64,000 nt of DNA. Origin: Ignavibacteriota bacterium. Its GTDB lineage: Bacteria > Bacteroidota > Ignavibacteria > UBA10030. The DNA lies in NCBI GenBank assembly GCA_963790045.1, contig CAWBMS010000008.1:133126-197125 (forward strand). Reading direction: 5' to 3'. This document shows positions 18,733 to 32,589 of the stretch, one piece after another. Every line of letters begins with the position of its first letter. Within the stretch, counting starts at the first letter, position 1. A model generated the notes under the pieces. The model saw nothing but the letters and a program-made list of their open reading frames with translations. It ran no database searches and had not been told where the DNA came from. The position numbers and the translations under genes are program-made.

Positions 18733-20202
18733 TTATTTCCCATTCTTCCGGATTTTATCCGCTTCATCCAATGCCGTTGCGGCTTTGTCTGCTTGCCCAA
18801 GGCGCGCATAGATAGTTCCCAGCGTATTCCAGATGACAGCATCGTTCGAGCGCAATTCTGTTTCAACTGCTGCACCATTCTTTATCGCTGCTTGAGCGCT
18901 TTTCCATTTTGAATCGGCAACTTTTTCGAGCCACGGAAGCGCTTCCTGAAATTTCTGTTTATATGCTACCGACTCATCGCCCTTTTCTTCCGCCGCTTTC
19001 TTCATCTCGACGCCCCAGTTGTACAACGTTGCACCAAGATCGTACAAAGCATCGTTATACTCAGGATCGATTTTTAGTGCTGCATTGTATTCCGCAATCG
19101 CATCATCATAGTTTGCAACTGTTCGGTATAACACACCGAGGATAAAATGATTTAATTTATTAGTCGGGTCGTTCACTATTGCCTGCTTAAACGCAACCGT
19201 TGCTTCCTTAATTCTATCGGCACCCACGTATGCTTGAAGCAGAAAACTCAGATTTTCGTTGTCTTTTGGATCAACGTTCTTAATCGTTTCAAACACATCC
19301 ACTGCTTTATTGAATTCAACAACAGCCGCAAAATAGCTCGTTGAATCGATGTGCGGATTATACGGTTGGGAAAATACTTTCGAGATCACTTTATCGTTCT
19401 CAATTGTAAACGTTACATTATATTTGTTGTACACCCACTGGACTTTTTGGGAATCATCCTTTTTAACGGCTTTCCCTTTTTTCTTCGCTACCTTCTCTTC
19501 ATCAGGAGCGCCTAATTCTCTTGTAACATCGGACTTATAACTTCCTTTATCTAATTCTGAAAGAGATTTAACGGAACGAATTTTTTCCGCATTATCCGAT
19601 TCAAATTTATTTTTCAATATCAATCCTTGTGAAGCATAAATTCTTCCTCCTAGTTTATAGCTCTCGGCATCTTTCCCCAATTCCCATGCTTTTGTATAGA
19701 CCCCGATCGCATTGGCATAGTCGCCTTTGCCACTGTATGCAATACCGATGTACTTATAGGTAATCGATGTTTCCGGCCATGCTGTTGCTGCTTTCAACAA
19801 TTCTGTCAGGGCTTTATCATAATACATCAGACTGTCGGCAGAAGCTTTTTTCAGAAAATCGATACCTTCGTTCGTCAATTTGCCCCACGTGTTATATTTG
19901 ATTCCATAAATTTCTTTCGCATGCTCATTGGAAATTTTCAGCGCCTCCCTAAAGGCCTTATTCATATTTTCATAGTCTCCGGTCTCTGATCTCAACGTCC
20001 CTAACAAATACCACGCTTCTTCATTGGCTGGATTTTTTTGTGTTTCTTTTTCAAGCGATGCAATTGCTGCCGGATAGTTTTTTTGTTGAATATAGACTTT
20101 TGCTCCCGTTAGTTCTGGTGAACCGCATTGAAATGCTTGCGTCATCAATCCAATGACTGTGAGTGTCATAATCATTGTAAAGAAGTTGTGTCTCATGGCC
20201 AT
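18733..20202 (-). CDS. TPR-repeat protein with a signal peptide
   Basis: It has an N-terminal hydrophobic leader and multiple TPR-like AxxxYxxG repeats. Confidence 0.7.
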   Translation of the reverse strand: MAMRHNFFTMIMTLTVIGLMTQAFQCGSPELTGAKVYIQQKNYPAAIASLEKETQKNPANEEAWYLLGTLRSETGDYENMNKAFREALKISNEHAKEIYGIKYNTWGKLTNEGIDFLKKASADSLMYYDKALTELLKAATAWPETSITYKYIGIAYSGKGDYANAIGVYTKAWELGKDAESYKLGGRIYASQGLILKNKFESDNAEKIRSVKSLSELDKGSYKSDVTRELGAPDEEKVAKKKGKAVKKDDSQKVQWVYNKYNVTFTIENDKVISKVFSQPYNPHIDSTSYFAAVVEFNKAVDVFETIKNVDPKDNENLSFLLQAYVGADRIKEATVAFKQAIVNDPTNKLNHFILGVLYRTVANYDDAIAEYNAALKIDPEYNDALYDLGATLYNWGVEMKKAAEEKGDESVAYKQKFQEALPWLEKVADSKWKSAQAAIKNGAAVETELRSNDAVIWNTLGTIYARLGQADKAATALDEADKIRKNGK

Positions 20203-20456
20203 GCCCTTCGTAATAATCTATTGGTGATATATAATTTTGTGTATAAAAATATACCAAAAGCTCGTACGAGATGCAAGATGTTGATAGACATAAAGATTGT
20301 AGAGCATCGGAAAAACAAATGCGCATGCTGCTTTTTATTCCAAAAAAGAATAGAATGGCGATACAACTAATGGAACTTGTTTCGATAAAAGCTGTTATTC
20401 AACAATATTCCATTGATGAATCGTTGCAACAGCTTCGTGAGCGGTCCATAACGACG

Positions 20457-20891
20457 TTATCGTTTTCCGGTAATATAATTTTCCAGATGCTGGATGGTCT
20501 GCTGCTGGTCGGAGATAATTTCTTTCACGACATCGCCGATGGAAATCAATCCCACTAATTGTTTATGGTCGAATACCGGCAGATGACGGACTCGTTTTTG
20601 CGTCATCAAAGCCATACATTCTTCAATAGATTGATCCGGATGCACAAACATGACAACCGAAGTCATAATATCTTTTACCACCGTCATTTTGGAGGATTCC
20701 CCCTTTAAAATAATTTTCCGCGCATAGTCGCGTTCAGAAAATATTCCTGCAAGTTGTTCCCCGGACATCACAAGAAGTGCACCGACATTTTTTTCTGCCA
20801 TCACGCGCAAGGCATCATACACCAATGTGTCAGGCGTAACCGACCAGACGTCTTTTCCTTTTGTTTGAAGAATGTGCCGAACGGTTGCCAT
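20457..20891 (-). CDS. CBS-domain pair protein
   Basis: It has two CBS motifs. The start is trimmed to MATVRHIL, which has a strong GGAGAGAGG RBS. Confidence 0.8.
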   Translation of the reverse strand: MATVRHILQTKGKDVWSVTPDTLVYDALRVMAEKNVGALLVMSGEQLAGIFSERDYARKIILKGESSKMTVVKDIMTSVVMFVHPDQSIEECMALMTQKRVRHLPVFDHKQLVGLISIGDVVKEIISDQQQTIQHLENYITGKR

Positions 20892-21031
20892 ACCTCTCTC
20901 CTTTTCTGAACTGCCATACTCTCTCATTTGTACCTGACAAAACATAAAACAACCGTCTCGCAGGAATAGTTCTAAGATTTTTTTGGAACCCGCGCCTGCA
21001 AGGAAGATACCATCGAATGGATATATATGCC

Positions 21032-21373
21032 TTACGAGCGAAAAATAAAATACACCGCACCGAGAATGCACAACCCCGCCCAAAGATAATCCCACTTCAT
21101 CGGCTGGTTCATATACAACACAGCGAACGGTACGAACACCGACAGCGTGATAACTTCCTGCAAAATTTTTAACTGTGCTAAACTTAGCGTGGTGTAACCG
21201 ATGCGATTGGCGGGAACTTGCAGTAAATATTCAAACAGCGCAATTCCCCAGCTTGCAACTGCCGCAACGTACCATTTCCGATCACTGAGATTTTTCAGGT
21301 GCGCATACCACGCAAATGTCATAAAGACGTTCGAGCAAATTAATAGCAATGTTGTCTGGACAATGACAGGCAT
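21032..21373 (-). CDS. small DMT-superfamily membrane protein (DUF486-like)
   Basis: It has four predicted transmembrane helices. The start is trimmed to MPVIVQ. Confidence 0.55.
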   Translation of the reverse strand: MPVIVQTTLLLICSNVFMTFAWYAHLKNLSDRKWYVAAVASWGIALFEYLLQVPANRIGYTTLSLAQLKILQEVITLSVFVPFAVLYMNQPMKWDYLWAGLCILGAVYFIFRS

Positions 21374-21485
21374 ATAAAATATTCTTTCTGAATGTTTCGG
21401 GAATTGAATGACAACAAACGAGGAAGCCAGTCTTCGACTCCGCTCGGACTGCACTTCCTCGTTTTCAAATCGATTTACAATGGTG

Positions 21486-23534
21486 TTACCAGATTTTTAT
21501 CTGCACACTATCTGCACGATACATCGGTTCACCGGATTGAATGCCGAACGTCGAATAAAATTCCGGCATATTGACCAATGGCCCGTTCACGCGGAACTTC
21601 GCCGGCGAATGTTCGTTGCTGCGCACCTGATTCGCCGTCATTTCCGGACGCTCGTTCACCATCCATCCAAGTGCATACCCAAGGAAAAATCGTTTGTCTG
21701 GATTTAATCCCGCAAGCGATTCATGATTTTTGTATTGATTCGTTTTCTTGAATGCCTCGTACGCCATCATCGTTCCGCCAAGGTCGGCAATGTTCTCACC
21801 TTGCGTCAATTCGCCGTTAATGTGCAAACTATCGACAGCAATATAACCGTTAAATTGCCGGACGATCATTTTTGTTTTTGCCGTGAACTTGATACTATCG
21901 TCCATCGTCCACCAGTTGTTCAAATTTCCCGATGCATCGTATTTACATCCCTGGTCATCGAAGCCGTGTGTAATTTCATGCCCAAACGTTGCGCCGATAA
22001 TCGAATACAGCAGCGCATCGTCCGCCAGCACATGTTCGTAGCCGGGAATAATAATATTGCAGCCGGGAATCACGATCTCGTTGTTGGAAGGATTATAATA
22101 CGCATTGTACGTTTGCGGCGTCATATCCCATTCCGTACGATCAACGGGCTTGCCGTATTTCGCAATCATATAATGGAACGCCCACGCATTTGCGTTAATG
22201 CCGTTATGCACATACGAAGATCGGTCGATCTTCATACTGCTCAAGTTTTTCCATTTATCGGGGTAACCGACTTTCATCACAATCGCATCGAGTTTCTTCA
22301 GCGCTTTTACTTTTGTCGCATCGCTCATCCAATCCAATGTTTTGATGCGTTCGGTATATACTTCTTTAATGGCTTTACCGATTTCAACTAATTTCGCTTT
22401 TGTTCCTTTCGGAAGATAATCCGACACATACACCTGTCCGATTAATTCTCCGAGCGACCCATCGGTTTGTTCCACCACGCGCTTCCATCGTGGTTTAGGT
22501 TCTTGCACTCCGCGTAACGTACCGGAATAGAAATTGAATGTTTCGAGATACGTTTTGTCATCTAAATATCGTGCAAGTCCGCGCACAAGATGATACTTAA
22601 GGTAATCTTTCCAATCGGCAAGCGGAACGGTTTTCAAATATCCATTGAGCGCTTCAAGAAATTCCGGTTGACCGACGATAACCGTATCCACTTTTTGCAA
22701 TCCGACGCCATCGATGAAAGTTGTCCAGTTGAGGTTCGCGGTGGATGCTTGCAATTGTTTGAAGGACATCTTGTGATAATTGGTAAGCGGATCGCGCGTG
22801 TCTTCCCGCTTGCGCATGACGCCGGCAAGCGCTGTTTCTAATTTCATCATGCGTTCGGCAGATTGTTTTGCCTGCGCATCATTGTAGCCAATAATTTTGA
22901 ACATGCGTTCAACGTGTTCCACAAATTTTTGCCGGATAGCGATGGCGCGTGCATCGGTATCAAAATAATAATTGCGATCCGGCATGCTGATACCGCCCTG
23001 CCAGATAAAGATTGCATTTTTACTGCTGATCTTATCGTCCTGCCCTACGCCGAATGAAAACATCGGATCGCCGGAAACGACATGCACATACGCAGCCGTT
23101 TGTAACAAATCATTGACAGATTTTATTTCATCGATCCTCTTCAAATCGTAGTGCAGCGGTTTCAATCCATTTTTATTCAATGCAACGCTATCCATGCCGG
23201 TGAAAAAGAAATCGCCGATCTTTTGTTTGTTGCTTCCTTTCGCTGCATGCTTCAACGCCGACAACGATTCACACAAATTCCGAATCTGTGCGTTGATCGT
23301 ATCCTGTATAATCTGCCAGATACCGTTGCTCTGCTCGCTGGCAGGAATTGGATTTTCTTTAAACCATTTTCCGTTGGCATATAAAAAGAAATCTGTTCCC
23401 GGCTTCACCGTCGTATCGATATGAGCAACTAAGGGATCGACCCAGAGCGTGTTGTTTGTTGTTTGACCGAACACCAGAGATGGAATGAAGATCAACATTA
23501 TTCCGATGGAACAATGAACGATTCGTTTTTTCAT
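21486..23534 (-). CDS. pepO: M13 family zinc metallopeptidase (PepO/neprilysin-like)
   Basis: It has the HEITHGFD zinc motif, is 682 aa long and has a signal peptide. Confidence 0.9.
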   Translation of the reverse strand: MKKRIVHCSIGIMLIFIPSLVFGQTTNNTLWVDPLVAHIDTTVKPGTDFFLYANGKWFKENPIPASEQSNGIWQIIQDTINAQIRNLCESLSALKHAAKGSNKQKIGDFFFTGMDSVALNKNGLKPLHYDLKRIDEIKSVNDLLQTAAYVHVVSGDPMFSFGVGQDDKISSKNAIFIWQGGISMPDRNYYFDTDARAIAIRQKFVEHVERMFKIIGYNDAQAKQSAERMMKLETALAGVMRKREDTRDPLTNYHKMSFKQLQASTANLNWTTFIDGVGLQKVDTVIVGQPEFLEALNGYLKTVPLADWKDYLKYHLVRGLARYLDDKTYLETFNFYSGTLRGVQEPKPRWKRVVEQTDGSLGELIGQVYVSDYLPKGTKAKLVEIGKAIKEVYTERIKTLDWMSDATKVKALKKLDAIVMKVGYPDKWKNLSSMKIDRSSYVHNGINANAWAFHYMIAKYGKPVDRTEWDMTPQTYNAYYNPSNNEIVIPGCNIIIPGYEHVLADDALLYSIIGATFGHEITHGFDDQGCKYDASGNLNNWWTMDDSIKFTAKTKMIVRQFNGYIAVDSLHINGELTQGENIADLGGTMMAYEAFKKTNQYKNHESLAGLNPDKRFFLGYALGWMVNERPEMTANQVRSNEHSPAKFRVNGPLVNMPEFYSTFGIQSGEPMYRADSVQIKIW

Positions 23535-23689
23535 GATACGTTCCTTTGTAAGTTTTTTTCATGTTGTATTTTAAAATATAAAAAAAGAACGAAGGATGCC
23601 AAGGTACACGGTCAAAGAAGAAATGGGAACCGTGAAAGCACATTGTCTATTTCCATCTCTATTATGCTGTGAGGAAAATGCTTAATCTT

Positions 23690-24010
23690 TCCCCGAATGG
23701 CTTTTCCCCTGCTCGTGCATGTTTTTCCTTCACAATTTTTATAAAAAGTTCATGCGTCTGTGCTTTCGCCCTTCTCCCGAACGTAATTTCCCAACGCCCA
23801 ATATCATTTTCCCTTCTCTTTTTTGTAATTATTTTACACCGGATGGCTTTTTCCTAATCCCGATTACAATTTCCCAACCCACGGACGGCGTTTCCCTTCT
23901 CCCGAACGCGTTTTCCCATCCCCCGACTGGTTTTTCTCTTCTCTTTTTTGTAAAAATTTCAGCCCGAACGTCTTTTCCCTAATCCCGGACATTCATTTTT
24001 TGCCCCCGTG
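23690..24010. repeat. degenerate tandem repeats (units of about 25-30 nt, CCCGAACG...TTTTCCC)
   Basis: The motifs cccgaacg / tttccc(t/a) recur in the non-coding tract upstream of the REP cluster. Confidence 0.5.
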
Positions 24011-24027
24011 GAGGTATTTCCCTGAAT

Positions 24028-24257
24028 GTGACCGTCACCCACTCCGTTTAATCTAAGCTGGTGACGGTCACATGCTCTGTTCTCAATTCGTGACCGTCAC
24101 CTACTCCGTCTAAGCCAAGCTGGTGACAGTCACATGCTCTGTTCTCGATTCGTGACATTCACCTACTCCGTTTAAGCCAAGCTGGTGACGACCACACCCC
24201 CGGCTTAAATTGTGACCGTCACTCGCGCTGTTTTAGCTTGGTAAGTGATGGTCACAT
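24028..24257. repeat. REP palindrome array (GTGACCGTCAC / GTGACGGTCAC alternating, about 4 units)
   Basis: Perfect 11-nt palindromic cores alternate in orientation at spacings of about 30 nt. Confidence 0.8.
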
Positions 24258-24267
24258 AATCCTTTTG

Positions 24268-24843
24268 TTACGAAAAAATATATTTCTCTATTTTGTATTT
24301 ATCCTCCGCCTGATACAATTCAACAAATTGTTGATACGTATTATTTTGAGAGAACTGTTCCAATACAATTTCCGGATGGATGAATTGTATCGGTATATCT
24401 CCGTAATATTCTTTGCAACTGCTAAATTGCCAATGCTGTGGCTGGGAAACAAGTTTCGCCCGAACAGGATTCAGATGGATATACCGCGAAAGATGAAGAA
24501 GATACTCGTTCTCTTCAATCTGTCGTAATTTATATTTTCCATCGAACAAATGCCCCGTCCGCTGCTGTTCCAAATTAACGGCCTTCACATATCCGTTACA
24601 AAGTTTTGCAATAAATTGCGACAACCCGTTTGCGTCGAGTTGTTGAAGAATGAAATGATAATGATTGGGCATAAGACAGTAGGCGATCATTTTGACAGCA
24701 GCTGGAGCGAGTGCATTTTGCATGCGTTCGAGGAACATTTGATATTGGTAGGGATGGAAAAATATAGAAGAATGATTGTTACCACGATTATACACATGGA
24801 AGTAAGAATCAACAGAAGCAAGATATTTTGTTTTGATGGACAT
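24268..24843 (-). CDS. REP-associated tyrosine transposase (RAYT, IS200-like Y1/HUH)
   Basis: It has the HUH motif CLMPNHYHFIL and a conserved Tyr region, and is flanked on both sides by GTGACCGTCAC REP arrays. Confidence 0.8.
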   Translation of the reverse strand: MSIKTKYLASVDSYFHVYNRGNNHSSIFFHPYQYQMFLERMQNALAPAAVKMIAYCLMPNHYHFILQQLDANGLSQFIAKLCNGYVKAVNLEQQRTGHLFDGKYKLRQIEENEYLLHLSRYIHLNPVRAKLVSQPQHWQFSSCKEYYGDIPIQFIHPEIVLEQFSQNNTYQQFVELYQAEDKYKIEKYIFS

Positions 24844-24870
24844 CGACTAAATCTCCTCACCTGCTCATCT

Positions 24871-25180
24871 GTGACCGTCACCTACTCTGTTCAAGCTTAG
24901 CTGGTGACGGTCACATGCTCTGTTCTCAATTCGTGACATTCACCCACTCCGTTTAATCTAAGCTGGTGACGGTCACATGCTCTGTTCTCAATTCGTGACC
25001 GTCACCCACTCCGTTTAAGCCAAGCTGGTGACAGTCACATGCTCTGTTCTCGATTCGTGACCGTCACCTACTCTGTTCAAGCTTTGCCGGTGACGGTCAC
25101 ACTCCACCGGCTTAGCTCGTGACCGTCACTTGCTCTATTTCAACTTGGTAAGTGACGGTCACATGATCCGGTCACATAAC
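24871..25180. repeat. REP palindrome array, same family as 24028-24257 (about 5 units)
   Basis: It has the same GTGAC(C/G)GTCAC cores. Confidence 0.8.
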
Positions 25181-25182
25181 AT

Positions 25183-25911
25183 CTATTTTTTTGTCGTATC
25201 TGTCGATGGAGATGTAGATGAGGATGTATTGCCCTTGTCGTCCGTCTTTTTGGATTTATGCGGCGGGGCGGTGTAGCGCGTTTTTCTTGCTGTTTCTAAT
25301 TTGGCAAGAAGATCGGGCTTGCCTTCAAACGCCAGAGTTGCGGCATTCTGGAAAGCATCGGCAAGCGTAATGGTTGCTTCGATGGAGGCATCGAACGCTT
25401 CAGTGGCTTGCTTCGCATCCGTTTTGCATTCCTCCTGCACTTTGTTAGCGGCGGTAAGCGCAACGCTATCGGTTTGCAGCGCCGCAATATCCGCAGGCAG
25501 CACGCCCTGTTTGGCAAGCCGCTCCTGATACGTCGGGAATCCCTTGCCGTAATCCGACGCCCAGCCGATCAGCACGGGCGAAGATCCCTTATGGTCTTCG
25601 CCCACATGGAAGACTTTTCCTTCCGGACTACTTTTGCCGAACTCCTTCTTCACCGCATTTTTAGTCTTTTTGATGCGGGATGCAACGGGTGTGCGCGCTG
25701 CTTCTTCATTCCGTGTAAGGTTCTTCAATTTTTCGTGGATTACTCCGGCAGCCGACCGCTTCACCTCCATATCTGCTTTTGCCGCCGTGTACTCGGCAAA
25801 CCGGCTTTCGGGAAAACGCTCCGTGAACAGAGCTTTGTTGTCGGTATAAAGAGCTTCTTTCAGATCGTACTCTTCTGCAAGCCCTTCGGAATAAACTGTT
25901 TGTGCTGCCAT
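25183..25911 (-). CDS. hypothetical protein, compositionally GC-rich, embedded between REP arrays
   Basis: The 242-aa ORF has a GGAGGT RBS. Its C-terminus is Ala/Lys/Glu-rich with an S/T/K-rich tail. I recognise no family. Confidence 0.5.
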   Translation of the reverse strand: MAAQTVYSEGLAEEYDLKEALYTDNKALFTERFPESRFAEYTAAKADMEVKRSAAGVIHEKLKNLTRNEEAARTPVASRIKKTKNAVKKEFGKSSPEGKVFHVGEDHKGSSPVLIGWASDYGKGFPTYQERLAKQGVLPADIAALQTDSVALTAANKVQEECKTDAKQATEAFDASIEATITLADAFQNAATLAFEGKPDLLAKLETARKTRYTAPPHKSKKTDDKGNTSSSTSPSTDTTKK

Positions 25912-26043
25912 ACCATACCTCCATAAAATTGATGTGTAAGATTATGAAGGGTCCCCATTTTATTTAAGACGATTCGTGGGGGCCCCGCTTGGTTATGTGA
26001 ATCGTTTGTTTATTTATGCGTGTGTGTTTCCTTTATTTTTTAT

Positions 26044-26115
26044 TTATGCATGTGACCGTCACCTACTCGTGCATGTGACCGTCACTCGCTTTGCGTTGAC
26101 AGAGTTAGTGACGGT
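26044..26115. repeat. REP palindromes (GTGACCGTCAC family), isolated pair
   Basis: The sequence reads gtgaccgtcacctactcgtgcatgtgaccgtcactcgc...agtgacggtcac. Confidence 0.7.
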
Positions 26116-26135
26116 CACAAACTTTGTCCGTTTTC

Positions 26136-26195
26136 TGTAAGGGTTGAAAATTTTCAACCCTTACAAAGTATTGTTCGGGAGATCATCTCCCGAAC
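26136..26195. terminator. two strong stem-loops at the distal end of the CRISPR array (possible array terminator)
   Basis: One has a 13-bp stem (tgtaagggttgaa aatt ttcaacccttaca) and the other a 10-bp stem (gttcgggaga tca tctcccgaac). Neither is followed by a clean U-tract. Confidence 0.35.
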
Positions 26196-26234
26196 AGCGA
26201 GGGCAATTACATCGAATTAAAAGTTACAACGTCT

Positions 26235-26790
26235 GTTTCAACTTCCTTTCAAATGGAATAACTGTCAGCGGCAGAGGCAACAAAAGTTGATTGCGAAACG
26301 TTTCAACTTCCTTTCAAATGGAATAACTGTCAGCATGACTTGCAATGATAACATCGTTTTCTTTGTTTCAACTTCCTTTCAAATGGAATAACTGTCAGCC
26401 ATAAATAATCATCGCTTTGATATTGTACTGTTTCAACTTCCTTTCAAATGGAATAACTGTCAGCACAATTCCGGAGCGGGAAGAACCTATAGCGGTTTCA
26501 ACTTCCTTTCAAATGGAATAACTGTCAGCAGAGGGCAAAGAGAAGAATTGCGATTGCTAGTTTCAACTTCCTTTCAAATGGAATAACTGTCAGCCGCTCA
26601 AGATGTTAAGCCGCTACTTAATCGGTTTCAACTTCCTTTCAAATGGAATAACTGTCAGCATGCTCGAAGTTCTTCTTCGTTCGCGCCTGTGTTTCAACTT
26701 CCTTTCAAATGGAATAACTGTCAGCCGCATAGGTCGTGAGCAACGTTGCTTGTAAGTTTCAACTTCCTTTCAAATGGAATAACTGTCAGC
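26235..26790. CRISPR. CRISPR array with 9 identical 35-nt repeats (GTTTCAACTTCCTTTCAAATGGAATAACTGTCAGC) and 8 unique spacers of 30-31 nt
   Basis: Repeats start at 26235, 26300, 26365, 26430, 26495, 26560, 26625, 26691 and 26756, and all are identical. The spacers are unique and non-repetitive. The minus-strand reading of the repeat ends in GTTGAAAC. Confidence 0.95.
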
Positions 26791-26908
26791 TTAGTACCAT
26801 GCAAATCCCAGTTCTTCATAGGGTTAGAGAATAAATAGTATAGAAATAAACGGGAAGAACGCAGTTTATTGAAGGGGAGATACCAAAAAATCCATTGTAC
26901 TTGGAATT

Positions 26909-26931
26909 GGTGAGTGGGCAAGCCCCTCACC
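26909..26931. ncRNA. stem-loop within the 250-bp cas12-like/array spacer region (candidate tracrRNA or scaffold element)
   Basis: The hairpin ggtgag tgggcaagccc ctcacc lies in the non-coding region between the gene stop (27040) and the array (26790). Confidence 0.25.
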
Positions 26932-27039
26932 TTCCGGATGATGTCGGCGAACGCCGCCATTCTTGCTATATCGGCAGCAAGATGAAACCACCCGTACCGT
27001 CTTCCGTTTTCACAGAAGAAAATGATTCTCTCTTAATTT

Positions 27040-28485
27040 TCAAAGAACAGTGCCGCCAGTATACTTGTGATACCATTCACATTCATCTTTGCGGGTTACC
27101 ACTTTAGTACTTTTGGCTATATTGCATGCGGCATTATAATCCGCATTGACGATTGTATCAAAATTTTTGCACGAGGGATTCTTACATTTAAATTCCGATT
27201 GACTGATACGTTGTTCTTCTGCTTCACTGCCACATTCGGTACATCGCTGGCTGGTATGATACGGATCAATACAGACCACTTCCATTCCTTTGCGGGCAGC
27301 TTTATCTTTGATCATCGTTTGTAATTCAAAGTACGACCAATTACGTAGAACAAAATCTCCCTGCAATGATTTTCCGTTTTCGTCTTTACCGTATCCTTCA
27401 AGAAGTTCTAATTTAATAACACCTGCGCGATACTTTTCTGCGAACTCGATAATGCGTCGCGAAACAGTGTGGTTATAAGTGCGAACAAAATGACGCTCTT
27501 TGTCCTTTAACGCTTCCATAGCTTTCAATTTCTTCCCGCGGCCTTTTCCGCCTTGCGTATTGCGCAAAGCAATTTGTAAATGCTTTCTGCGTTGCTGCAT
27601 TTGTGTACGCACACGTAAGAATTCGTTGCGGCTGCCAATTGCCAGACGGGCAAGCCCATCTGATAATGCACAATATGCCGGAACATTCAAGCCGAGATCG
27701 ACGCCAACCGAACGCGCTGTATCTAATACCAGCTTTTCTTCTTCAAATTTTATTGCGAGCAGTAAGAATATTTTTCTATCCTGCACCTGCATCTGGGAAT
27801 CACACATTTGGTAATCACCGGCAAGCACACGATCCATAATAATTTCGTTGCCACTACGGTCCCGTCCGAACCGTAATTCAAAATTCAACCCTTCTAACCA
27901 ATGCAACAGAACTTTTCCATCCTTCTTTTCAAACCGGAGACTTTCTTTCATAAACGGAATCGGCATGCCTTTTCGGAAACTACTAATTGCTCGTTGACCG
28001 CGGCGAACATCGAGGAGTTCCTTTTTAAACTTATCTACCACCGCATTATTTAATGCAGCTTTAATATAGGAAGGCATATCAGGGAATTCATCGGCAAGCA
28101 TTTGGTAGGTGGAGTTCTTTTCCCCTGTAACATAAAATGCTTCTGCTTCCGTGCGTGCCTCTAATGTTAAAGTGGCTTTTGCTTTGGTAAGTTTCTCTAA
28201 TTTTTTCTGTAATTTTTCTGCCGCGGCTTCGTCGGCTTCTTTCTTTTTTGCTTCTAAAGTTTTTTTATAATCTTCTTTAATTTCCTGCGCCTTTTCGGAA
28301 AGTTTTTCATCTGTCCATACGATTCGTTGTTTGAATGTGTCGTTAAAGTATTGATTGCTAACAATGAGATTTGCTGCACGGAAAACATCGTTGCTTAGTT
28401 GCCGTAAATACCGCCACGCCAAATTACGTTTTTCAGCATCTTGTTCATCTATCCATAATTCTATTTTACGGGTTATGATCGGCAT
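27040..28485 (-). CDS. TnpB/Cas12-like RuvC nuclease (481 aa), a candidate compact type V CRISPR effector
   Basis: RuvC-I is GVDLGLNVPAYCALSDG, RuvC-II is IKLELLEGYGKDENG and RuvC-III is NADYNAACNIAKS. A zinc finger CTECGS...FKCKNPSCKNF lies between RuvC-II and RuvC-III, the same arrangement as in Cas12f/TnpB. A Lys/Glu-rich coiled-coil insertion of about 60 aa follows the N-terminal WED-like region. It has the same orientation as the array and lies 250 bp upstream of it. Confidence 0.8.
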   Translation of the reverse strand: MPIITRKIELWIDEQDAEKRNLAWRYLRQLSNDVFRAANLIVSNQYFNDTFKQRIVWTDEKLSEKAQEIKEDYKKTLEAKKKEADEAAAEKLQKKLEKLTKAKATLTLEARTEAEAFYVTGEKNSTYQMLADEFPDMPSYIKAALNNAVVDKFKKELLDVRRGQRAISSFRKGMPIPFMKESLRFEKKDGKVLLHWLEGLNFELRFGRDRSGNEIIMDRVLAGDYQMCDSQMQVQDRKIFLLLAIKFEEEKLVLDTARSVGVDLGLNVPAYCALSDGLARLAIGSRNEFLRVRTQMQQRRKHLQIALRNTQGGKGRGKKLKAMEALKDKERHFVRTYNHTVSRRIIEFAEKYRAGVIKLELLEGYGKDENGKSLQGDFVLRNWSYFELQTMIKDKAARKGMEVVCIDPYHTSQRCTECGSEAEEQRISQSEFKCKNPSCKNFDTIVNADYNAACNIAKSTKVVTRKDECEWYHKYTGGTVL

Positions 28486-28526
28486 ACTGCATGCTTCCGT
28501 GTTAAATTATTTCTTTGTCTCTTCAT

Positions 28527-28608
28527 CTCACTCCGCCGACTTCCCCAAACGCACTCCTTGGAGAAGCACATTATATCCAACCGTTTTAAACTTGCTGTAA
28601 AGTTACAT
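28527..28608. repeat. copy A of an 80-bp conserved element, located 40-120 bp upstream of the cas12-like start
   Basis: It is near-identical to 29667-29747, which lies upstream of the RAYT gene. It contains gttttaaacttg, resembling the 5' end of the CRISPR repeat (gtttcaacttcc), and on the minus strand a TATAAT-like box (ggatataatg). Confidence 0.7.
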
Positions 28609-28914
28609 GAACGCCTTATTAAAAGCAAATAAATTACTTCTGCTTCGATCATAATATTGTATTTCCCAATAATCCATTATCCTCATGCCTGCGCTCGGTA
28701 TCGGTTGCCCAACATTGAATGTCCTCACCATGAATTTAATTCATTGCTCCATGTTGTGGGCACGTTCCGCCAAATAGACTGCGGATAAACGCAACGTGCC
28801 CCTGCCGATTTTAATCAATACAACAATATTCTGAAAATAATTTTCCATCGTAGGGACGTGATTCATCACGTCCATTTTATTTATTATATCCCTTTCTTGC
28901 ATCACGTCCTCATA

Positions 28915-29010
28915 ACGAATTTATGAATCAAATTAATGGATTTGATGAATCAAATTAATGGATTTGATAAATCAAATTAATGGATTTGATGAATCAAATC
29001 CCTACGATGA
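28915..29010. repeat. tandem array of a 22-bp unit containing the perfect palindrome GGATTTGATGAATCAAATCC (about 4 copies)
   Basis: The unit aatggatttgatgaatcaaatt is repeated. It overlaps the 3' end of the RAYT ORF, and a further copy occurs at about 29340-29380 inside the ORF. Confidence 0.7.
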
Positions 29011-29643
29011 TATATCTGCGTTGAACAATCGTTGTACACTGTCGGGATGTTCATGATCCATTGCCCACATCACAGGGTTTCCGGCAATATATTTACGAAT
29101 GTTGTTCAATTCTTTATCGCTGCGAATAACATGTTCGTAGAAACGGGATTGCCAACGGAAATTATCATATCCCGCATCGTGAATAAATTTCGTCGTCCGC
29201 GCTTTATAATGGCGAACAATTTTACCTAAGGTCAATTTTGGATTTTTCATCAATCCCCATTCATTCGTAGGGACGTGATTTATCACGTCCTGATTTATAT
29301 CCGCATGATTAACCACGTCCGAATGGTTCATCGCATCCCCGTTTAGGATTTGATGAATCAAATCCCTACGATGGTCATATTCCAACAATACCAATATTCC
29401 ATGAACGTGATTGGGCATTATGATATATTCATCCAATTGCACATTTGCAAAATGTTTTGTTATATCGTTCCAACAACGCTCTGCAATTATTCCAATCGGC
29501 AACAAATGGATTGCTTCGTCATTTATTTCACCAAACATATTTTCATGATTATGCGTGCAAATCGTAATAAAATATCCGCCCGGCATCGAGTAGTCGTACT
29601 CTTTTAATCGAATGGATTTTCTCTGACAACGTGTTGCAATCAT
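29002..29643 (-). CDS. REP-associated tyrosine transposase (RAYT, IS200-like Y1/HUH), third family
   Basis: It has the HUH motif IIMPNHVHGILVL and the conserved RWQSRFYEHVIR (Y-motif) region. It is flanked by GGGACGTGAT..ATCACGTCCC palindromes at about 28850-28880 and 29270-29300. Confidence 0.8.
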   Translation of the reverse strand: MIATRCQRKSIRLKEYDYSMPGGYFITICTHNHENMFGEINDEAIHLLPIGIIAERCWNDITKHFANVQLDEYIIMPNHVHGILVLLEYDHRRDLIHQILNGDAMNHSDVVNHADINQDVINHVPTNEWGLMKNPKLTLGKIVRHYKARTTKFIHDAGYDNFRWQSRFYEHVIRSDKELNNIRKYIAGNPVMWAMDHEHPDSVQRLFNADISS

Positions 29644-29666
29644 CGTATGTATCTCTTTGTTTTTAT

Positions 29667-29747
29667 TCCACCGACTTCCCCAAACGCACTCCTTGGAGAA
29701 GCACTTTGTATCTACCTAACCGTTTTAAACTTGGTTTAAAGTTACAT
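29667..29747. repeat. copy B of the 80-bp conserved element, upstream of the RAYT gene
   Basis: It is about 90% identical to copy A (28527-28608). Confidence 0.7.
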
Positions 29748-29989
29748 TATCAAATATTAAAACGCAAGGGGAAGAAGAGAAAAGAGGCAATTGCTATGAA
29801 TTTTTTAGGGAATCAGGTAGAAACATAACCAAAATAGGTTTGAGTAAACAGTTTCAGAAGGTTCTCTTCACGACGATTAAACCGATATTCAACGTCTTTC
29901 GTTGTGCGCAAAATCCCTGATGCAAGCCCACAACGTGAAGAACTCTATAAAAAAGAAAAGGCAGTCACAAAAGTTGTGACTGCCGAGAG

Positions 29990-30062
<73 letters not shown>

Positions 30063-30289
30063 ATCATTATATACATTAATATAACGATTGCTTGCCCCGT
30101 AATCAAGGTAATTCTTTTTTCATTTTTTGCATCATTTCCTCATCATTCTTCCATTGACTTCTCAAATAACCTTTGCGATATTATCGCCACGAAATATTGT
30201 TTAGTTCAAAGCTTTTGCTTTGGAACCTGCCCGGCTGCTGCCATCAAGTGCAACGGCGGCAGATCTACAAACCAGTTTTAGGAGTTCCT

Positions 30290-31619
30290 ATGAAACGGAC
30301 CAGAGTCATTATTATGGGCGCCGCGGGACGGGACTTCCACAATTTCAATACCGTCTTCCGCATAGACGACCGATACGAAGTCGTCGCTTTCACCGCAACA
30401 CAAATTCCCAACATCGATGGACGCAAGTACCCGGCAGAACTTGCCGGTGCATTGTATCCGCACGGCATTCCCATTTTTCCCGAAACGGAATTAACGCGCC
30501 TCATTAAAGAGATGCATGCCGATGAAGTGATCTTTGCTTACAGCGATGTTCCCTTTCAGTATGTGATGAGTAAGGCAGCGCTTGTGATGGCGGCAGGCGC
30601 TGATTTCAAAGTTCAAGGTGCGGCGCCAACGATGTTGAAAAGTAAAGTTCCGGTAATTGCCGTTGTTGCCGTGCGAACCGGAGCCGGCAAAAGTCAAACG
30701 TCGCGTAAAGTGTGTAATATTTTGAGAGCCGCGGGAAAACGTGTTGTGGCAATCAGGCATCCGATGCCGTACGGAGATTTGGTAAAGCAAAAAGTGCAGC
30801 GGTATTCTTCGTTAGAAGATTTGAAAACGTACGAATGCACAGTAGAAGAAATGGAAGAATACGAACCGCATATCGTGAACGGCACGATGATTTATGCCGG
30901 TGTTGATTATGAAGCGATCTTACGGCAAGCGGAACAAGAAGCCGATGTGATCGTGTGGGATGGCGGCAATAACGACATGTCATTCTATCAACCCGATCTC
31001 ACTATTCTCGTCGCCGATCCCCATCGTCCCGGGGCATGAAATTTCCTATTATCCCGGCGCCGTTAATTTATATCTTGCAGATGTGGTCATCATCAACAAA
31101 GTGGAAACGGCAGCACGTGAAAACATCGATGCTGTTCGAAAAAATATCGTTACAATCAATCCGAAGGCAGTCATCATCGAAGCAGCTTCACCCATTACGG
31201 TGGATGATGAATCCATCATTCGCAATAAACGTGTGCTCGTTGTGGAAGATGGTCCAACGCTCACACACGGCGAAATGACATACGGCGCAGGAGTGGTTGC
31301 CGCGCGTATGTTCGGCGCAAAAGAACTTGTCGATCCACGGCCGTGGGTTGTAAATTCTATTGCTGAAACTTTCCAAAAATATCCGCACATTGGTATATTA
31401 CTGCCTGCGATGGGCTATGGTGGAAAACAAATCAAAGATTTGGAAACCACCATTAATCGTGTTGAATGCGATTCGGTAATCATCGGCACGCCGATCGATC
31501 TGCGCCGCATCATCAACATCAACAAACCGTCCACGCGTGTGCGATATGAATTAGATGAAATTGCAAAGCCCGATTTGCACGACATCCTGCAAACATTTTT
31601 ACAGAAACACGGATTGACA
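30290..31619 (+). CDS. P-loop NTPase with an N-terminal Rossmann-like domain (DUF1611 / cyclic-2,3-diphosphoglycerate-synthetase-like), with a +1 frameshift at GGGG 31031-31034
   Basis: It has [10 protein letters not shown] at the N-terminus and a [12 protein letters not shown]-loop. Two ORFs (30290-31039 and 30960-31622) rejoin as ...[14 protein letters not shown] if one G is removed. Confidence 0.45.
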
Positions 31620-31640
31620 TAACTTGAAGGAGAGCTACAC

Positions 31641-32589
31641 ATGAAACGAGATTTTCTAAGTATCAACGATTGGTCCACCAAAGAGCTGTTGGAAGTTTTA
31701 AAAATTTCCCGGCAAATGAAAGCCAATCCAAAAAAGTTTTCCAAAGCGCTTGCCGGAAAATCAGTCGCATTGATTTTTGAAAAACAATCGCTGCGCACGC
31801 ACGTAACGTTTGAAATCGGTGCAAAGCAAATGGGAGCGAACACCACATACCTCACGAATGCGGACATCAGTCTGGGCAAACGCGAAACGATCTATGATGT
31901 GGCAAAAAATTTGGAACGCTGGGTGGATGCTGTCGTCATCCGTACGTATGCGCAGCAAAATGTTGTCGAGCTTGCCAAGTTACGGTTCTCATGTCGTCAT
32001 CAATGCGCTGACGGATCACGAACATCCATGTCAAGCAGTTGGCGATTTCATGACCATACAGGAACATCTTAAAACATTCAAGGGGAAAAAATTTGTATGG
32101 ATCGGCGATGGCAACAATGTCTGTCATTCGTTGATGCTGCTTGCGGCAAAAGTCGGAATGAATTTTACTGCTGTTACACCGCCGACACATAAACCGGATA
32201 CACAGGTTGTTGCGGCTGCAATCGAAGAGGCAAAAAAGACAGGCGCTGTTATTGAAATCATTCACGATCCGGTTGCCGGCGCAACAAATGCCGATGTGAT
32301 TTATACAGATGTCTGGATTAGCATGGGACAGGAAGCCGAACGTGAAACAAAGATGCAGGCGTTTCGTGCATATCAAGTGAATGCAGATTTGATGAAGCGT
32401 GCAAAACCGACCGCCATCTTCCTGCATTGTTTACCGGCACATCGCGGTGAAGAAGTTACCGCAGCTGTGATCGACTCTCCGCAATCAGCAGTGTTTGATG
32501 AAGCGGAGAATCGCCTGCATTCTCAAAAGGCAATTTTGTATTACGCATTGCAGAAAAGCAAGCGCAGTAAGAAATTACGTCGCAGATAA
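31641..32589 (+). CDS. argF: ornithine carbamoyltransferase, with a +1 frameshift near 31977
   Basis: It has the SLRTHVTFE (STRTR) and HCLPAHRGEEV (HCLP) motifs. The frame switches at aagttacgg, and removing one T gives ELAKYGSHVVINALTDHEHP. Confidence 0.85.

What the first reader, a model, noticed from the sequence alone, without database searches (positions are those of the whole stretch)
26791..27039. 250-bp non-coding gap between effector stop and array is a candidate tracrRNA/scaffold locus
In TnpB the ω-RNA scaffold is encoded across the 3' end of the gene and the adjacent downstream DNA. In Cas12f-type systems this scaffold becomes a tracrRNA encoded near the effector gene. Here a 250-bp non-coding region with a stable hairpin (26909-26931, ggtgag...ctcacc) sits exactly in that position. 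I found only a weak (12/20) anti-repeat match at about 26890-26910, so how it pairs with the repeat is unresolved.
Basis: inference. Interest (0 to 1): 0.55.

Follow-up and report, generated by a model that had tools for sequence, protein, structure and literature searches.

The report
Cas12f tracrRNA gene beside CRISPR array

Summary
Confirmed. A 481-aa Cas12f gene lies on the minus strand (28485..27040). It is followed by a 249-nt gap and then a 9-repeat CRISPR array (26790..26235).

The gene-proximal ~135 nt of the gap (about 27018..26885, minus strand) has the conserved guide-RNA scaffold of the Al3Cas12f/MG119 clade:
- stem 1;
- stem 2 (GGGUG/CAUCC), here carrying two extra hairpins in its loop;
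- a GGAA linker;
- a bipartite anti-repeat and then a U6 run.

A covariance model built without this clade, but including the published Al3Cas12f sgRNA, finds exactly this site and nothing else significant in 64 kb (35.9 bits, E=1.3e-6). Across about 95 distinct homologous sites, 98.9% of pair cells are paired, and 177 cells show changes on both sides.

It forms helices of about 7 and 6 bp (about -11 kcal/mol), which is not significant on its own. It does covary with each locus's own repeat (own vs permuted repeats, 0/20000).

Transcript ends and activity are untested. This is a new member of a known kind, and interest is low to moderate. One loose end: a conserved GTTCTTTGA box marks the 5' edge of the unit.

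The parts
27040..28485 (-). cas12f effector gene (481 aa). RuvC residues D262, E359 and D448 are present.
   Evidence: The best solved relative is Al3Cas12f (9NZO), E=1.3e-93.
27040..27048 (-). GTTCTTTGA box. It overlaps the last two codons and the stop codon. It is a recurring nucleotide element at the 5' edge of the tracrRNA unit; its function is unknown.
   Evidence: 15 of the 34 exact occurrences in about 2 Mb of loci lie just upstream of a scaffold, in different reading frames. It also precedes the two gene-less scaffold copies of L138.
27001..27018 (-). tracrRNA stem 1 (CUUCUGUGAAAACGGAAG), followed by the conserved linker ACGGUAC (27000..26994).
   Evidence: -7.0 kcal/mol, z = -7.7. A hairpin of unrelated sequence sits at the same place in most homologous loci. 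MG119 and Al3 tracrRNAs start with such a stem.
26936..26993 (-). Stem 2: GGGUG (26993..26989) pairs with CAUCC (26940..26936). Its loop GUUUCAU carries a clade-specific insertion of about 44 nt with two hairpins: 2a at 26981..26962 (loop GCCGAUAU) and 2b at 26958..26943.
   Evidence: pairs CG/UA and GC/UA/AU covary. RNAalifold on 7 near relatives gives hairpins 2a and 2b with compensatory changes in nearly every pair.
26909..26935 (-). Linker GGAA (26935..26932) and stem 3 GGUGAGGGG-CUUG-CCCACUCACC (26931..26909).
26891..26909 (-). Anti-repeat. The proximal helix C-AAUUCC (26909..26903) pairs with repeat GGAA(G)UUG. An internal loop AAGUAC follows. The middle helix AAUGGA (26896..26891) pairs with repeat UCCAUU.
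   Evidence: plus compensatory variants in L085, L162, L002 and L005. Family permutation test 0/20000.
26885..26890 (-). U6 run, the probable 3' end of the tracrRNA. It is preceded by the weak hairpin UCCA-AGUACAA-UGGA.
   Evidence: U-runs lie at the same place in L002, L001, L161, L162, L093 and L086, and sequence conservation stops here.
26862..26870 (-). Possible distal anti-repeat AAUAAACUG, complementary to the repeat 5' part CAGUUAUU with one bulge. This is uncertain.
   Evidence: Read directly. Relatives have a clear distal helix (L001 UCCAACAA:UUGUUGGA, L085 UUAGUUACAA:UUGUAACUAA, L139), but in the window it lies beyond the U-run.
26791..26884 (-). Unconserved A+T-rich leader between the tracrRNA and the first repeat.
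   Evidence: no conservation among near relatives; no convincing promoter match.
26235..26790 (-). CRISPR array: 9 identical 35-nt repeats and 8 spacers of 30-31 nt. The crRNA sense is GCUGACAGUUAUUCCAUUUGAAAGGAAGUUGAAAC followed by the spacer.
   Evidence: The orientation follows from the anti-repeat pairing and from the repeat 3' end (GAAAC / ACAAC / CCAAC) shared with characterised relatives.

Best explanation
The gene-proximal part of the gap (about 27018 to 26885, minus strand, ~135 nt) is the tracrRNA gene of a type V-F (Cas12f) CRISPR system.

**Shown:**
- The sequence has the conserved scaffold of the Al3Cas12f/MG119 clade.
- The scaffold is read on the strand of the gene.
- It ends in a segment that can pair with the repeat.

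**Inferred from characterised relatives:**
- The RNA folds into stem 1, stem 2 (with two clade-specific extra hairpins in its loop) and stem 3.
- Its 3' anti-repeat pairs with the 3' two-thirds of a crRNA repeat through two short helices: CAAUUCC:GGAA(G)UUG and AAUGGA:UCCAUU. The last five repeat bases (GAAAC) and the spacer stay free.
- A Cas12f homodimer binds this dual RNA and cuts PAM-flanked DNA with its intact RuvC site.
- The duplex is thermodynamically weak, so assembly probably depends on the protein.

The rest of the gap (26884..26791) is the array leader.
For: 1. The effector is a Cas12f close to structurally solved, tracrRNA-dependent enzymes. Its catalytic D262, E359 and D448 are present.
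2. The layout gene, then a gap of about 65-410 nt in most loci, then an array on the same strand recurs in most of the 160 homologous loci.
3. Alignment A2 of 40 cores: 98.5% of pair cells are paired, against 40-53% when the partners are slid. 86 cells show changes on both sides.
4. Model R1 finds one site in the window (26906-26993 minus, 43.8 bits) and 165 sites in the loci, almost all just 3' of the gene and on its strand. On 95 distinct hits, 98.9% of cells are paired, 177 cells show changes on both sides, and 0/500 shuffles do as well.
5. Model R2 was built without the window and its three nearest relatives, but with the published Al3Cas12f sgRNA. It still finds only this site: 35.9 bits, E=1.3e-6; the next hit has E=1.2.
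6. G-U pairs are common in the helices (GU 43, 54 and 25 of 95 at three pairs). This fixes the strand, because they would be A-C mismatches on the opposite strand. The minus strand folds better (z = -4.6 vs -2.8).
7. Near-clade alignment: 21 of 33 predicted pairs carry compensatory changes, including the two inserted hairpins.
8. The anti-repeat covaries with the repeat. Proximal helix: AAUUCC/GGAAGUU (window), AAUCCC/GGGAGUU (L085), AAUCCC/GGGAAUU (L162). Middle helix: AAUGGA/UCCAUU (window), AAUGGAG/CUCCGUU (L002), AAACGA/UCGUUU (L005), AAAUGU/ACGUUU (L162).
9. Own-repeat duplexes average -16.1 kcal/mol against -12.0 for permuted repeats (sd 0.59), 0/20000 permutations.
10. RNAcofold keeps the scaffold and forms exactly these intermolecular helices.
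11. Conservation among near relatives begins at stem 1 and stops at the U-run. This matches the 113-131-nt tracrRNA parts of the published MG119/Al3 guides, which also begin at stem 1.
Against: - No expression data exist. The 5' and 3' ends, the promoter and any processing are not established.
- In the window alone, the anti-repeat:repeat duplex is weak (-10.6 to -12.1 kcal/mol, ddG about -5 in cofold) and not better than shuffled repeats (127/1000).
- The U6 run lacks a strong preceding terminator hairpin.
- Some helix-2 pairs of alignment A2 were partly imposed by how I trimmed the sequences. The unimposed pairs, the model-based alignment A3 and the independent model R2 give the same answer.
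- No protospacer was found, so activity and the PAM are unknown.
Confidence: 0.85

Rival explanations
1. The scaffold is not a separate trans-acting RNA. It is the 5' part of one long transcript (cas12f 3'UTR, scaffold, leader, array). It acts in cis on the first repeat, or as an omega-RNA-like or dCas12f-like natural single guide.
For: - The gene, scaffold and array are all on one strand, with no convincing promoter or terminator between them.
- The U6 run lacks a strong hairpin.
- The related dCas12f systems use single guide RNAs with the same core.
- In relatives, a distal helix pairs with the repeat 5' end. In the window, a candidate for it (26862-26870) lies beyond the U-run.
Against: - Conservation stops at the U-run, and the ~95-nt leader is not conserved.
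- In the window a full 9-repeat array follows, whereas in dCas12f loci a guide is fused to the scaffold.
- In L138 the scaffold units with their 5' box are duplicated independently of a gene, which suggests self-contained units.
- For MG119-2, RNA-seq of TXTL lysate identified a tracrRNA and a crRNA.
Confidence: 0.08
2. The gap is only the CRISPR leader and promoter, and the effector works with crRNA alone, as Cas12a does.
For: The anti-repeat match in the window alone is no better than chance. No Rfam family matches the region.
Against: - The structured core has strong covariation and lies at the same place in more than 100 loci.
- It is homologous to validated tracrRNAs.
- The repeat has almost no hairpin of its own (-2.9 kcal/mol), unlike repeats that work alone.
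- Cas12f enzymes solved so far carry a guide RNA of about 130-200 nt.
Confidence: 0.03
3. The scaffold is a decaying relic of a system that no longer functions.
For: No cas1, cas2 or cas4 was found among the ORFs scanned beside the gene. No protospacers were found. The anti-repeat is weak.
Against: - The ORF and RuvC triad are intact.
- All nine repeats are identical.
- All 13 core pairs are intact.
- A second sample (L165) has the same protein and a gap with a single SNP, in a loop.
- Relatives also lack adaptation genes, so this is the normal layout.
Confidence: 0.04

Closest known systems
Al3Cas12f (Cas12f-MG119-28) guide RNA, PDB 9NZO/9NZR, and the MG119-2 and MG119-3 tracrRNAs (PMC13186708)
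   Same: - The effector is the best PDB match (E=1.3e-93).
- The RNA plan is the same: a 5' stem 1; GGGNN-GUUGNA-NNNCC stem 2; a 4-nt linker ending in AG; stem 3 NUGAGG...CACUCAN; then AA(U) and immediately the anti-repeat.
- The register on the repeat is the same: the last 5-7 nt are unpaired.
- The tracrRNA is encoded in the intergenic DNA next to the nuclease gene.
   Different: - The window's RNA has a ~44-nt, two-hairpin insertion in the stem-2 loop, whereas Al3 has its large insertion inside the stem-3 loop.
- The window's linker is GGAA rather than UUAG.
- The anti-repeat is two short helices with an internal loop, whereas the engineered Al3 sgRNA has one 10-11-bp helix.
- Nothing has been tested experimentally for the window.
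PDB 8HR5 protein (deposited name 'Transposase'; I recall it as CnCas12f1)
   Same: Second-best solved relative of the protein (E=2e-70). It is a dimeric Cas12f that uses a tracrRNA-derived sgRNA (my own knowledge).
   Different: I could not retrieve its guide sequence, so the RNA comparison was not made.
dCas12f-sigmaE natural single guide RNAs (PMC13472631; PDB 9N9C)
   Same: The same stem 2, linker and stem 3 core lies directly 3' of the gene; model R1 hits L055-L080 at 38-55 bits.
   Different: Those RNAs carry their own 14-16-nt guide and no tracrRNA was detected, and the proteins are nuclease-dead. The window has a separate array, an anti-repeat and an intact RuvC site.
TnpB omega-RNA (reRNA) of IS200/IS605 elements
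   Same: It is the evolutionary ancestor, and its scaffold is also encoded at or after the 3' end of the nuclease gene on the same strand (established knowledge; discussion).
   Different: - The omega-RNA overlaps the ORF's 3' end and is fused to a guide taken from the DNA flanking the transposon end.
- In the window, conserved structure starts about 20 nt after the stop codon and the guides come from a CRISPR array.
- No IS ends were identified.
Un1Cas12f1 (Cas14a1), AsCas12f, OsCas12f and RhCas12f tracrRNAs
   Same: They have the same role and lie in the same general position near the effector and array. Several stems precede a 3' anti-repeat.
   Different: Their proteins are more distant (E=1e-20 to 1e-43). 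Their published guide sequences differ, but I did not align them with model R1, so whether they share the core was not tested.

Membership tests
Type V-F (Cas12f) tracrRNA, Al3Cas12f/MG119-type scaffold | Encoded next to a cas12f gene and a CRISPR array | tested here: met
   It lies between the gene's stop codon (27040) and the first repeat (26790), on the same strand.
Type V-F (Cas12f) tracrRNA, Al3Cas12f/MG119-type scaffold | Conserved scaffold (stem 2, linker, stem 3) homologous to experimentally validated guide RNAs | tested here: met
   Model R2 includes the Al3Cas12f sgRNA and excludes the window's clade. It hits 26906-26993 (minus) at 35.9 bits, E=1.3e-6, the only significant hit in the window. 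All 13 R1 pairs are formed.
Type V-F (Cas12f) tracrRNA, Al3Cas12f/MG119-type scaffold | Helices supported by covariation across homologous loci | tested here: met
   98.5-98.9% of pair cells are paired, 86 and 177 cells show changes on both sides, and slid controls give 31-53%. In the near clade, 21 of 33 pairs have compensatory changes.
Type V-F (Cas12f) tracrRNA, Al3Cas12f/MG119-type scaffold | Anti-repeat complementary to the locus's own repeat | tested here: met
   It is in the expected register directly 3' of stem 3, with helices of about 7 and 6 bp. Family-wide, own repeats beat permuted repeats in 20000 of 20000 permutations. In the window alone the duplex is weak and not significant (127/1000 shuffles).
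Type V-F (Cas12f) tracrRNA, Al3Cas12f/MG119-type scaffold | Expressed as a discrete small RNA that binds the effector and is needed for DNA cleavage | not testable with these tools
   This needs RNA-seq, RIP-seq and cleavage assays.
TnpB omega-RNA / natural single guide RNA | Scaffold overlaps the 3' end of the nuclease ORF | tested here: not met
   Conservation among near relatives starts at stem 1, 21 nt after the stop codon. Only the 9-nt GTTCTTTGA box overlaps the stop.
TnpB omega-RNA / natural single guide RNA | Guide fused directly to the 3' end of the scaffold, with no CRISPR array | tested here: not met
   The scaffold is followed by an anti-repeat, a U6 run, a ~95-nt leader and a 9-repeat array.
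Rfam-curated RNA families | Match to any Rfam 15 covariance model | tested here: not met
   There is no hit in 26150-27250 even at E<=1. Only four tRNAs are found in the whole window.

The most novel reading that the evidence does not exclude
The tracrRNA unit has a defined and so far undescribed 5' boundary element, the box GTTCTTTGA. In the window it overlaps the cas12f stop codon.

The box is kept at the nucleotide level in distant Bacteroidota and Bacillota loci, whatever the reading frame. It also precedes gene-less duplicated tracrRNA copies.

It could be a processing or 5'-end signal, or a promoter part, that releases the tracrRNA from the cas12f 3'UTR. That would be a vestige of how omega-RNAs are made from tnpB transcripts, and a handle on how the single omega-RNA split into tracrRNA plus crRNA.
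Probability: 0.15. Interest if true: 0.5.

Novelty: new member of a known kind. Interest (0 to 1): 0.3.

Why it matters
It turns an unannotated 481-aa "transposase-like" ORF plus array into a complete, testable Cas12f system: effector, tracrRNA and crRNA, with a concrete sgRNA design. The system is related to Al3Cas12f, one of the most active miniature editors.

The clade-specific features are useful for comparing guide-RNA architectures, but they do not change what is known about Cas12f. These features are two extra hairpins in the stem-2 loop with a conserved YCCGWUAU-like loop, and a very weak split anti-repeat. The conserved GTTCTTTGA box is the only element that might lead to something new, namely tracrRNA biogenesis.

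Tried and rejected
- **Single-sequence duplex search** of the repeat against both strands of the gap and the gene's 3' end. The best hits (-18 to -22 kcal/mol) were scattered, some inside the ORF or on the wrong strand. A sliding scan of the 10-kb region gave many better duplexes elsewhere. Thermodynamics alone cannot locate the anti-repeat here.
- **Plus-strand tracrRNA.** Rejected because of the G-U pairs and the weaker fold.
- **Rfam** at gathering and E<=1 thresholds found nothing.
- **Promoter and terminator scan**. The only strong sigma70-like site (27161..27133, minus strand) sits in the codons of the conserved FDTIVNADYN motif. The host is probably Bacteroidota, so I did not rely on it. 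No terminator is called at the U6 run.
- **Bacteroidetes TAnnTTTG motif**, searched by eye near the box and in the leader: no match.
- **Pairing partner for the GTTCTTTGA box** (linker, stem-2 loop, repeat): no covarying partner. The linker varies while the box stays fixed.
- **Protospacers** for the first 20 nt of spacers 1-3 in IMG/VR: none.
- **Conserved neighbours** such as cas1, cas2 or RAYT in L001 and L002: none.
- **My first regex-based collection of cores** imposed part of stem 3. I therefore repeated the count on model-derived hits and with a leave-clade-out model.
- **CnCas12f1 guide sequence** could not be found in the library.

Full report
**What is in the sequence.** The window carries a minus-strand ORF of 481 aa (28485..27040). 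A gap of 249 nt follows (27039..26791). Then comes a CRISPR array of nine identical 35-nt repeats with 30-31-nt spacers (26790..26235).

The protein belongs to the TnpB/Cas12f family: NCBIfam guided_TnpB 2.8e-48, Cas12f2 model 3.4e-34, Pfam Cas12f1-like TNB domain 8e-16. Its best solved relatives are Al3Cas12f (9NZO/9NZR, E=1.3e-93 over residues 4-467), the 8HR5 protein (2e-70) and RhCas12f (9NZP, 4e-56) (the entry-to-enzyme assignment for 9NZO-9NZT is). The RuvC residues D262, E359 and D448 are present.

The repeat-like stretch is at 26890-26909.

**Orientation.** In crRNA sense (minus strand) the repeat reads GCUGACAGUUAUUCCAUUUGAAAGGAAGUUGAAAC. Repeats of homologous loci end in the same way (GAAAC, ACAAC, CCAAC). 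So does the crRNA part of the published Al3Cas12f sgRNA (…AUAUCCAAC). Gene, gap and array are therefore read in one direction.

**Comparative evidence.** I collected 160 loci that encode relatives of the protein, from genome and metagenome collections, plus five contigs for the nearest proteins. In most loci with enough flanking DNA, an array follows the gene on the same strand after a gap of about 65-410 nt.

The gaps share a core that can be read by eye:
- a hairpin of variable sequence (stem 1);
- GGGYN-GUUGNA-NRYCC (stem 2);
- a 4-nt linker ending in AG;
- GUGAGG…CACUCAC (stem 3);
- AA(U);
- a stretch complementary to that locus's own repeat.

In the window this core reads, on the minus strand:
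- CUUCUGUGAAAACGGAAG (stem 1, 27018..27001);
- ACGGUAC;
- GGGUG GUUUCAU [CUUGCU-GCCGAUAU-AGCAAG] AAU [GGCGGCGUUCGCCGAC] AU CAUCC (stem 2 with two inserted hairpins, 26993..26936);
- GGAA;
- GGUGAGGGG-CUUG-CCCACUCACC (stem 3, 26931..26909);
- AAUUCC AAGUAC AAUGGA (anti-repeat, 26908..26891);
- UUUUUU (26890..26885).

**Statistical tests of the scaffold.**
- On an alignment of 40 distinct cores, 98.5% of pair cells form standard pairs, against 40-53% when the 3' partners are slid by 1-3 columns. 86 cells carry changes on both sides, and 0/500 shuffles do as well.
- Part of stem 3 had been imposed by the way I trimmed the sequences. I therefore built covariance model R1 and searched every locus.
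- R1 finds 165 sites, nearly all on the gene strand immediately after the gene. On the 95 distinct hits from the first hundred loci, 98.9% of cells are paired and 177 cells show changes on both sides. Pairs that were never imposed covary freely: 4/75 is UA:52 and CG:39; 90/171 is UA:33, GC:19, UG:15, AU:12, CG:12.
- In the window, R1 hits only 26906-26993 on the minus strand (43.8 bits).
- The window was in that seed, so I built a second model, R2. It left out the window and its three nearest relatives and added the published Al3Cas12f sgRNA. R2 again finds only this site: 35.9 bits, E=1.3e-6, with the next hit at E=1.2.
- The abundant G-U pairs fix the strand. The 138-nt minus-strand segment folds far better than shuffles (z = -4.6, 0/200), and the plus strand does less well (z = -2.8).
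- In the seven nearest relatives, RNAalifold recovers stem 2, both inserted hairpins and stem 3. 21 of 33 pairs have compensatory changes.
- The two-hairpin insertion in the stem-2 loop is seen in the window, L165, L002, L001, L161, L081/L164, L082 and L005 among the cores I inspected. L039 and L048 also carry long but unrelated inserts in that loop.

**The anti-repeat.** The best duplex between the window's tail and its repeat is -10.6 to -12.1 kcal/mol, and 127 of 1000 shuffled repeats do as well.

The position and comparison settle the matter. The segment follows stem 3 directly, in the same register as the anti-repeat of the Al3Cas12f sgRNA (…CACUCAAAAAAUUCACUUGA paired with UCAAGUGAAU-AUCCAAC).

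Both helices change together with the repeat:

| Helix | Locus | tracrRNA | repeat |
|---|---|---|---|
| Proximal | window, L001 | AAUUCC | GGAAGUU |
| Proximal | L085 | AAUCCC | GGGAGUU |
| Proximal | L162 | AAUCCC | GGGAAUU |
| Middle | window | AAUGGA | UCCAUU |
| Middle | L002 | AAUGGAG | CUCCGUU |
| Middle | L005 | AAACGA | UCGUUU |
| Middle | L162 | AAAUGU | ACGUUU |

Over 28 loci with distinct repeats, own-repeat duplexes average -16.1 kcal/mol against -12.0 (sd 0.59) for permuted assignments, 0 of 20000 permutations. RNAcofold of the proposed tracrRNA with the repeat keeps the scaffold and forms these helices, with a net gain of only about -5 kcal/mol. The split, weak duplex is therefore a property of this clade, and I infer that the protein stabilises it.

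Many relatives add a third, distal helix with the repeat's 5' end: L001 UCCAACAA:UUGUUGGA, L085 UUAGUUACAA:UUGUAACUAA, L139 CUGACAGC:GCUGUUAG. In the window the only candidate is AAUAAACUG at 26870..26862. It lies beyond the U-run, so I leave it open.

**Boundaries.** Among the near relatives, sequence and structure conservation begins at stem 1 and ends at the U-run. The remaining ~95 nt up to the first repeat is not conserved. U-runs sit at the same place in L002, L001, L161, L162, L093 and L086.

The published guides also begin at stem 1. The MG119-2 tracrRNA was identified by RNA-seq, and the listed sequence is a modified version. The active short Al3Cas12f guide is 134 nt. I therefore place the tracrRNA at about 27018..26885 (~135 nt). 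The ends are inferred, not shown.

**Mechanism.**
- Shown: a conserved, covarying scaffold of the Al3Cas12f/MG119 type on the gene strand, ending in a repeat-complementary segment.
- Inferred from the characterised relatives (PMC13186708): the tracrRNA pairs with repeat-derived crRNA, a Cas12f homodimer binds the dual RNA, and it cleaves PAM-flanked double-stranded DNA.
- Not known: the promoter, processing and the PAM.

**Rivals.**
- A crRNA-only system with a mere leader is excluded for practical purposes by the covariation and the homology.
- One long cis-acting or single-guide RNA, as in the related dCas12f systems, cannot be excluded without transcript mapping. It is disfavoured by the end of conservation at the U-run, by the full array, and by the independent duplication of scaffold units in L138.
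- A dead relic is unlikely, given the intact ORF, the identical repeats and a near-identical copy in a second sample (L165).

**Comparison with what is known.** This is the normal architecture of a Cas12f locus. Its RNA is a member of the same scaffold family as the MG119/Al3Cas12f guides. The same core is also used by the dCas12f-sigmaE single guides.

It is not in Rfam. It differs from Al3Cas12f in where the peripheral hairpins are inserted and in the split anti-repeat. It differs from a TnpB omega-RNA in not overlapping the ORF and in not carrying its own guide.

My verdict is a new member of a known kind.

**One loose end.** The 9-mer GTTCTTTGA overlaps the stop codon in the window (27048..27040). 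It recurs just upstream of the scaffold in phylogenetically scattered loci and in different reading frames, sometimes after the stop codon. It also precedes each of three scaffold copies in L138, two of which have no gene in front of them. These account for 15 of the 34 exact occurrences in about 2 Mb.

The long Al3Cas12f sgRNA design starts with UUGAAAU, which pairs with AUUUCAA as an extra 5' stem. The window could form a similar stem, GAAAAU (27041..27036) with AUUUUC (27023..27018), but this is speculative. I found no covarying partner and cannot say whether the box is a promoter part, a processing site or a 5' extension.

Noticed in passing
window 27040-27048 (minus strand); also L002, L003, L026, L028, L029, L091, L093, L104, L138 (three copies), L162, L163 and L165: The exact 9-mer GTTCTTTGA recurs 17-56 nt upstream of the tracrRNA core. 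It does so whatever the reading frame, and also before scaffold copies that have no gene in front of them. It appears to be a nucleotide-level boundary element of unknown function.
   Followed up: partly
window 24023-24264, 24866-25171 and 26047-26127; ORF 24268-24843 (minus): Tandem 62-nt REP-like repeats built on GTGACCGTCAC palindromes flank an ORF that resembles a REP-associated tyrosine transposase (NCBIfam 7e-19, Pfam Y1_Tnp 4e-8). A second, weaker RAYT-like ORF lies at 29002-29643. This association with cas12f is not seen in L001 or L002.
   Followed up: partly
window 28532-28628 vs 29667-29767; 28843-28873 vs 29260-29290; 28917-28999: Direct repeats 76-93% identical lie just upstream of the starts of cas12f and of the 213-aa ORF. 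There is also a repeated hairpin (GGGACGTGAT..ATCACGTCC) and a 22-nt-period tandem repeat between the two genes. These may be shared promoter regions or mobile-element remnants.
   Followed up: no
L165 (Logan ERR11594402), positions 1531-2066: A second sample has the identical Cas12f protein and the same gap with one SNP (window 26901, in the anti-repeat internal loop). It shows only one repeat, followed by the window's trailer. This is either a minimal array or a k-mer assembly collapse of the array.
   Followed up: partly
L138 5288-6900; also L072, L069, L067, L031: Several loci carry two or three tandem copies of the scaffold. In L138, two of the three copies are each followed by a small array. 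In the dCas12f loci these are the tandem natural sgRNAs described in PMC13472631.
   Followed up: partly
window 27133-27161 (minus strand): A near-consensus sigma70-type promoter (TTGATA, 17 nt, TATAAT; 11 of 12 matches) lies inside the cas12f 3' end, within the codons of the conserved FDTIVNADYN RuvC motif, about 85 nt upstream of the stop codon. It may be chance, or an internal promoter for the tracrRNA.
   Followed up: no
alignment A1, column of window residue D262: Three of the 25 closest homologues have Asn in place of the first RuvC aspartate. They may be naturally nuclease-impaired relatives.
   Followed up: no
window 20000-32000; L001 and L002 flanks: No cas1, cas2 or cas4 was found among the ORFs scanned beside cas12f. 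In L001 and L002 the effector, tracrRNA and array sit among unrelated genes. Yet the window's array has eight spacers where L165 shows none.
   Followed up: partly
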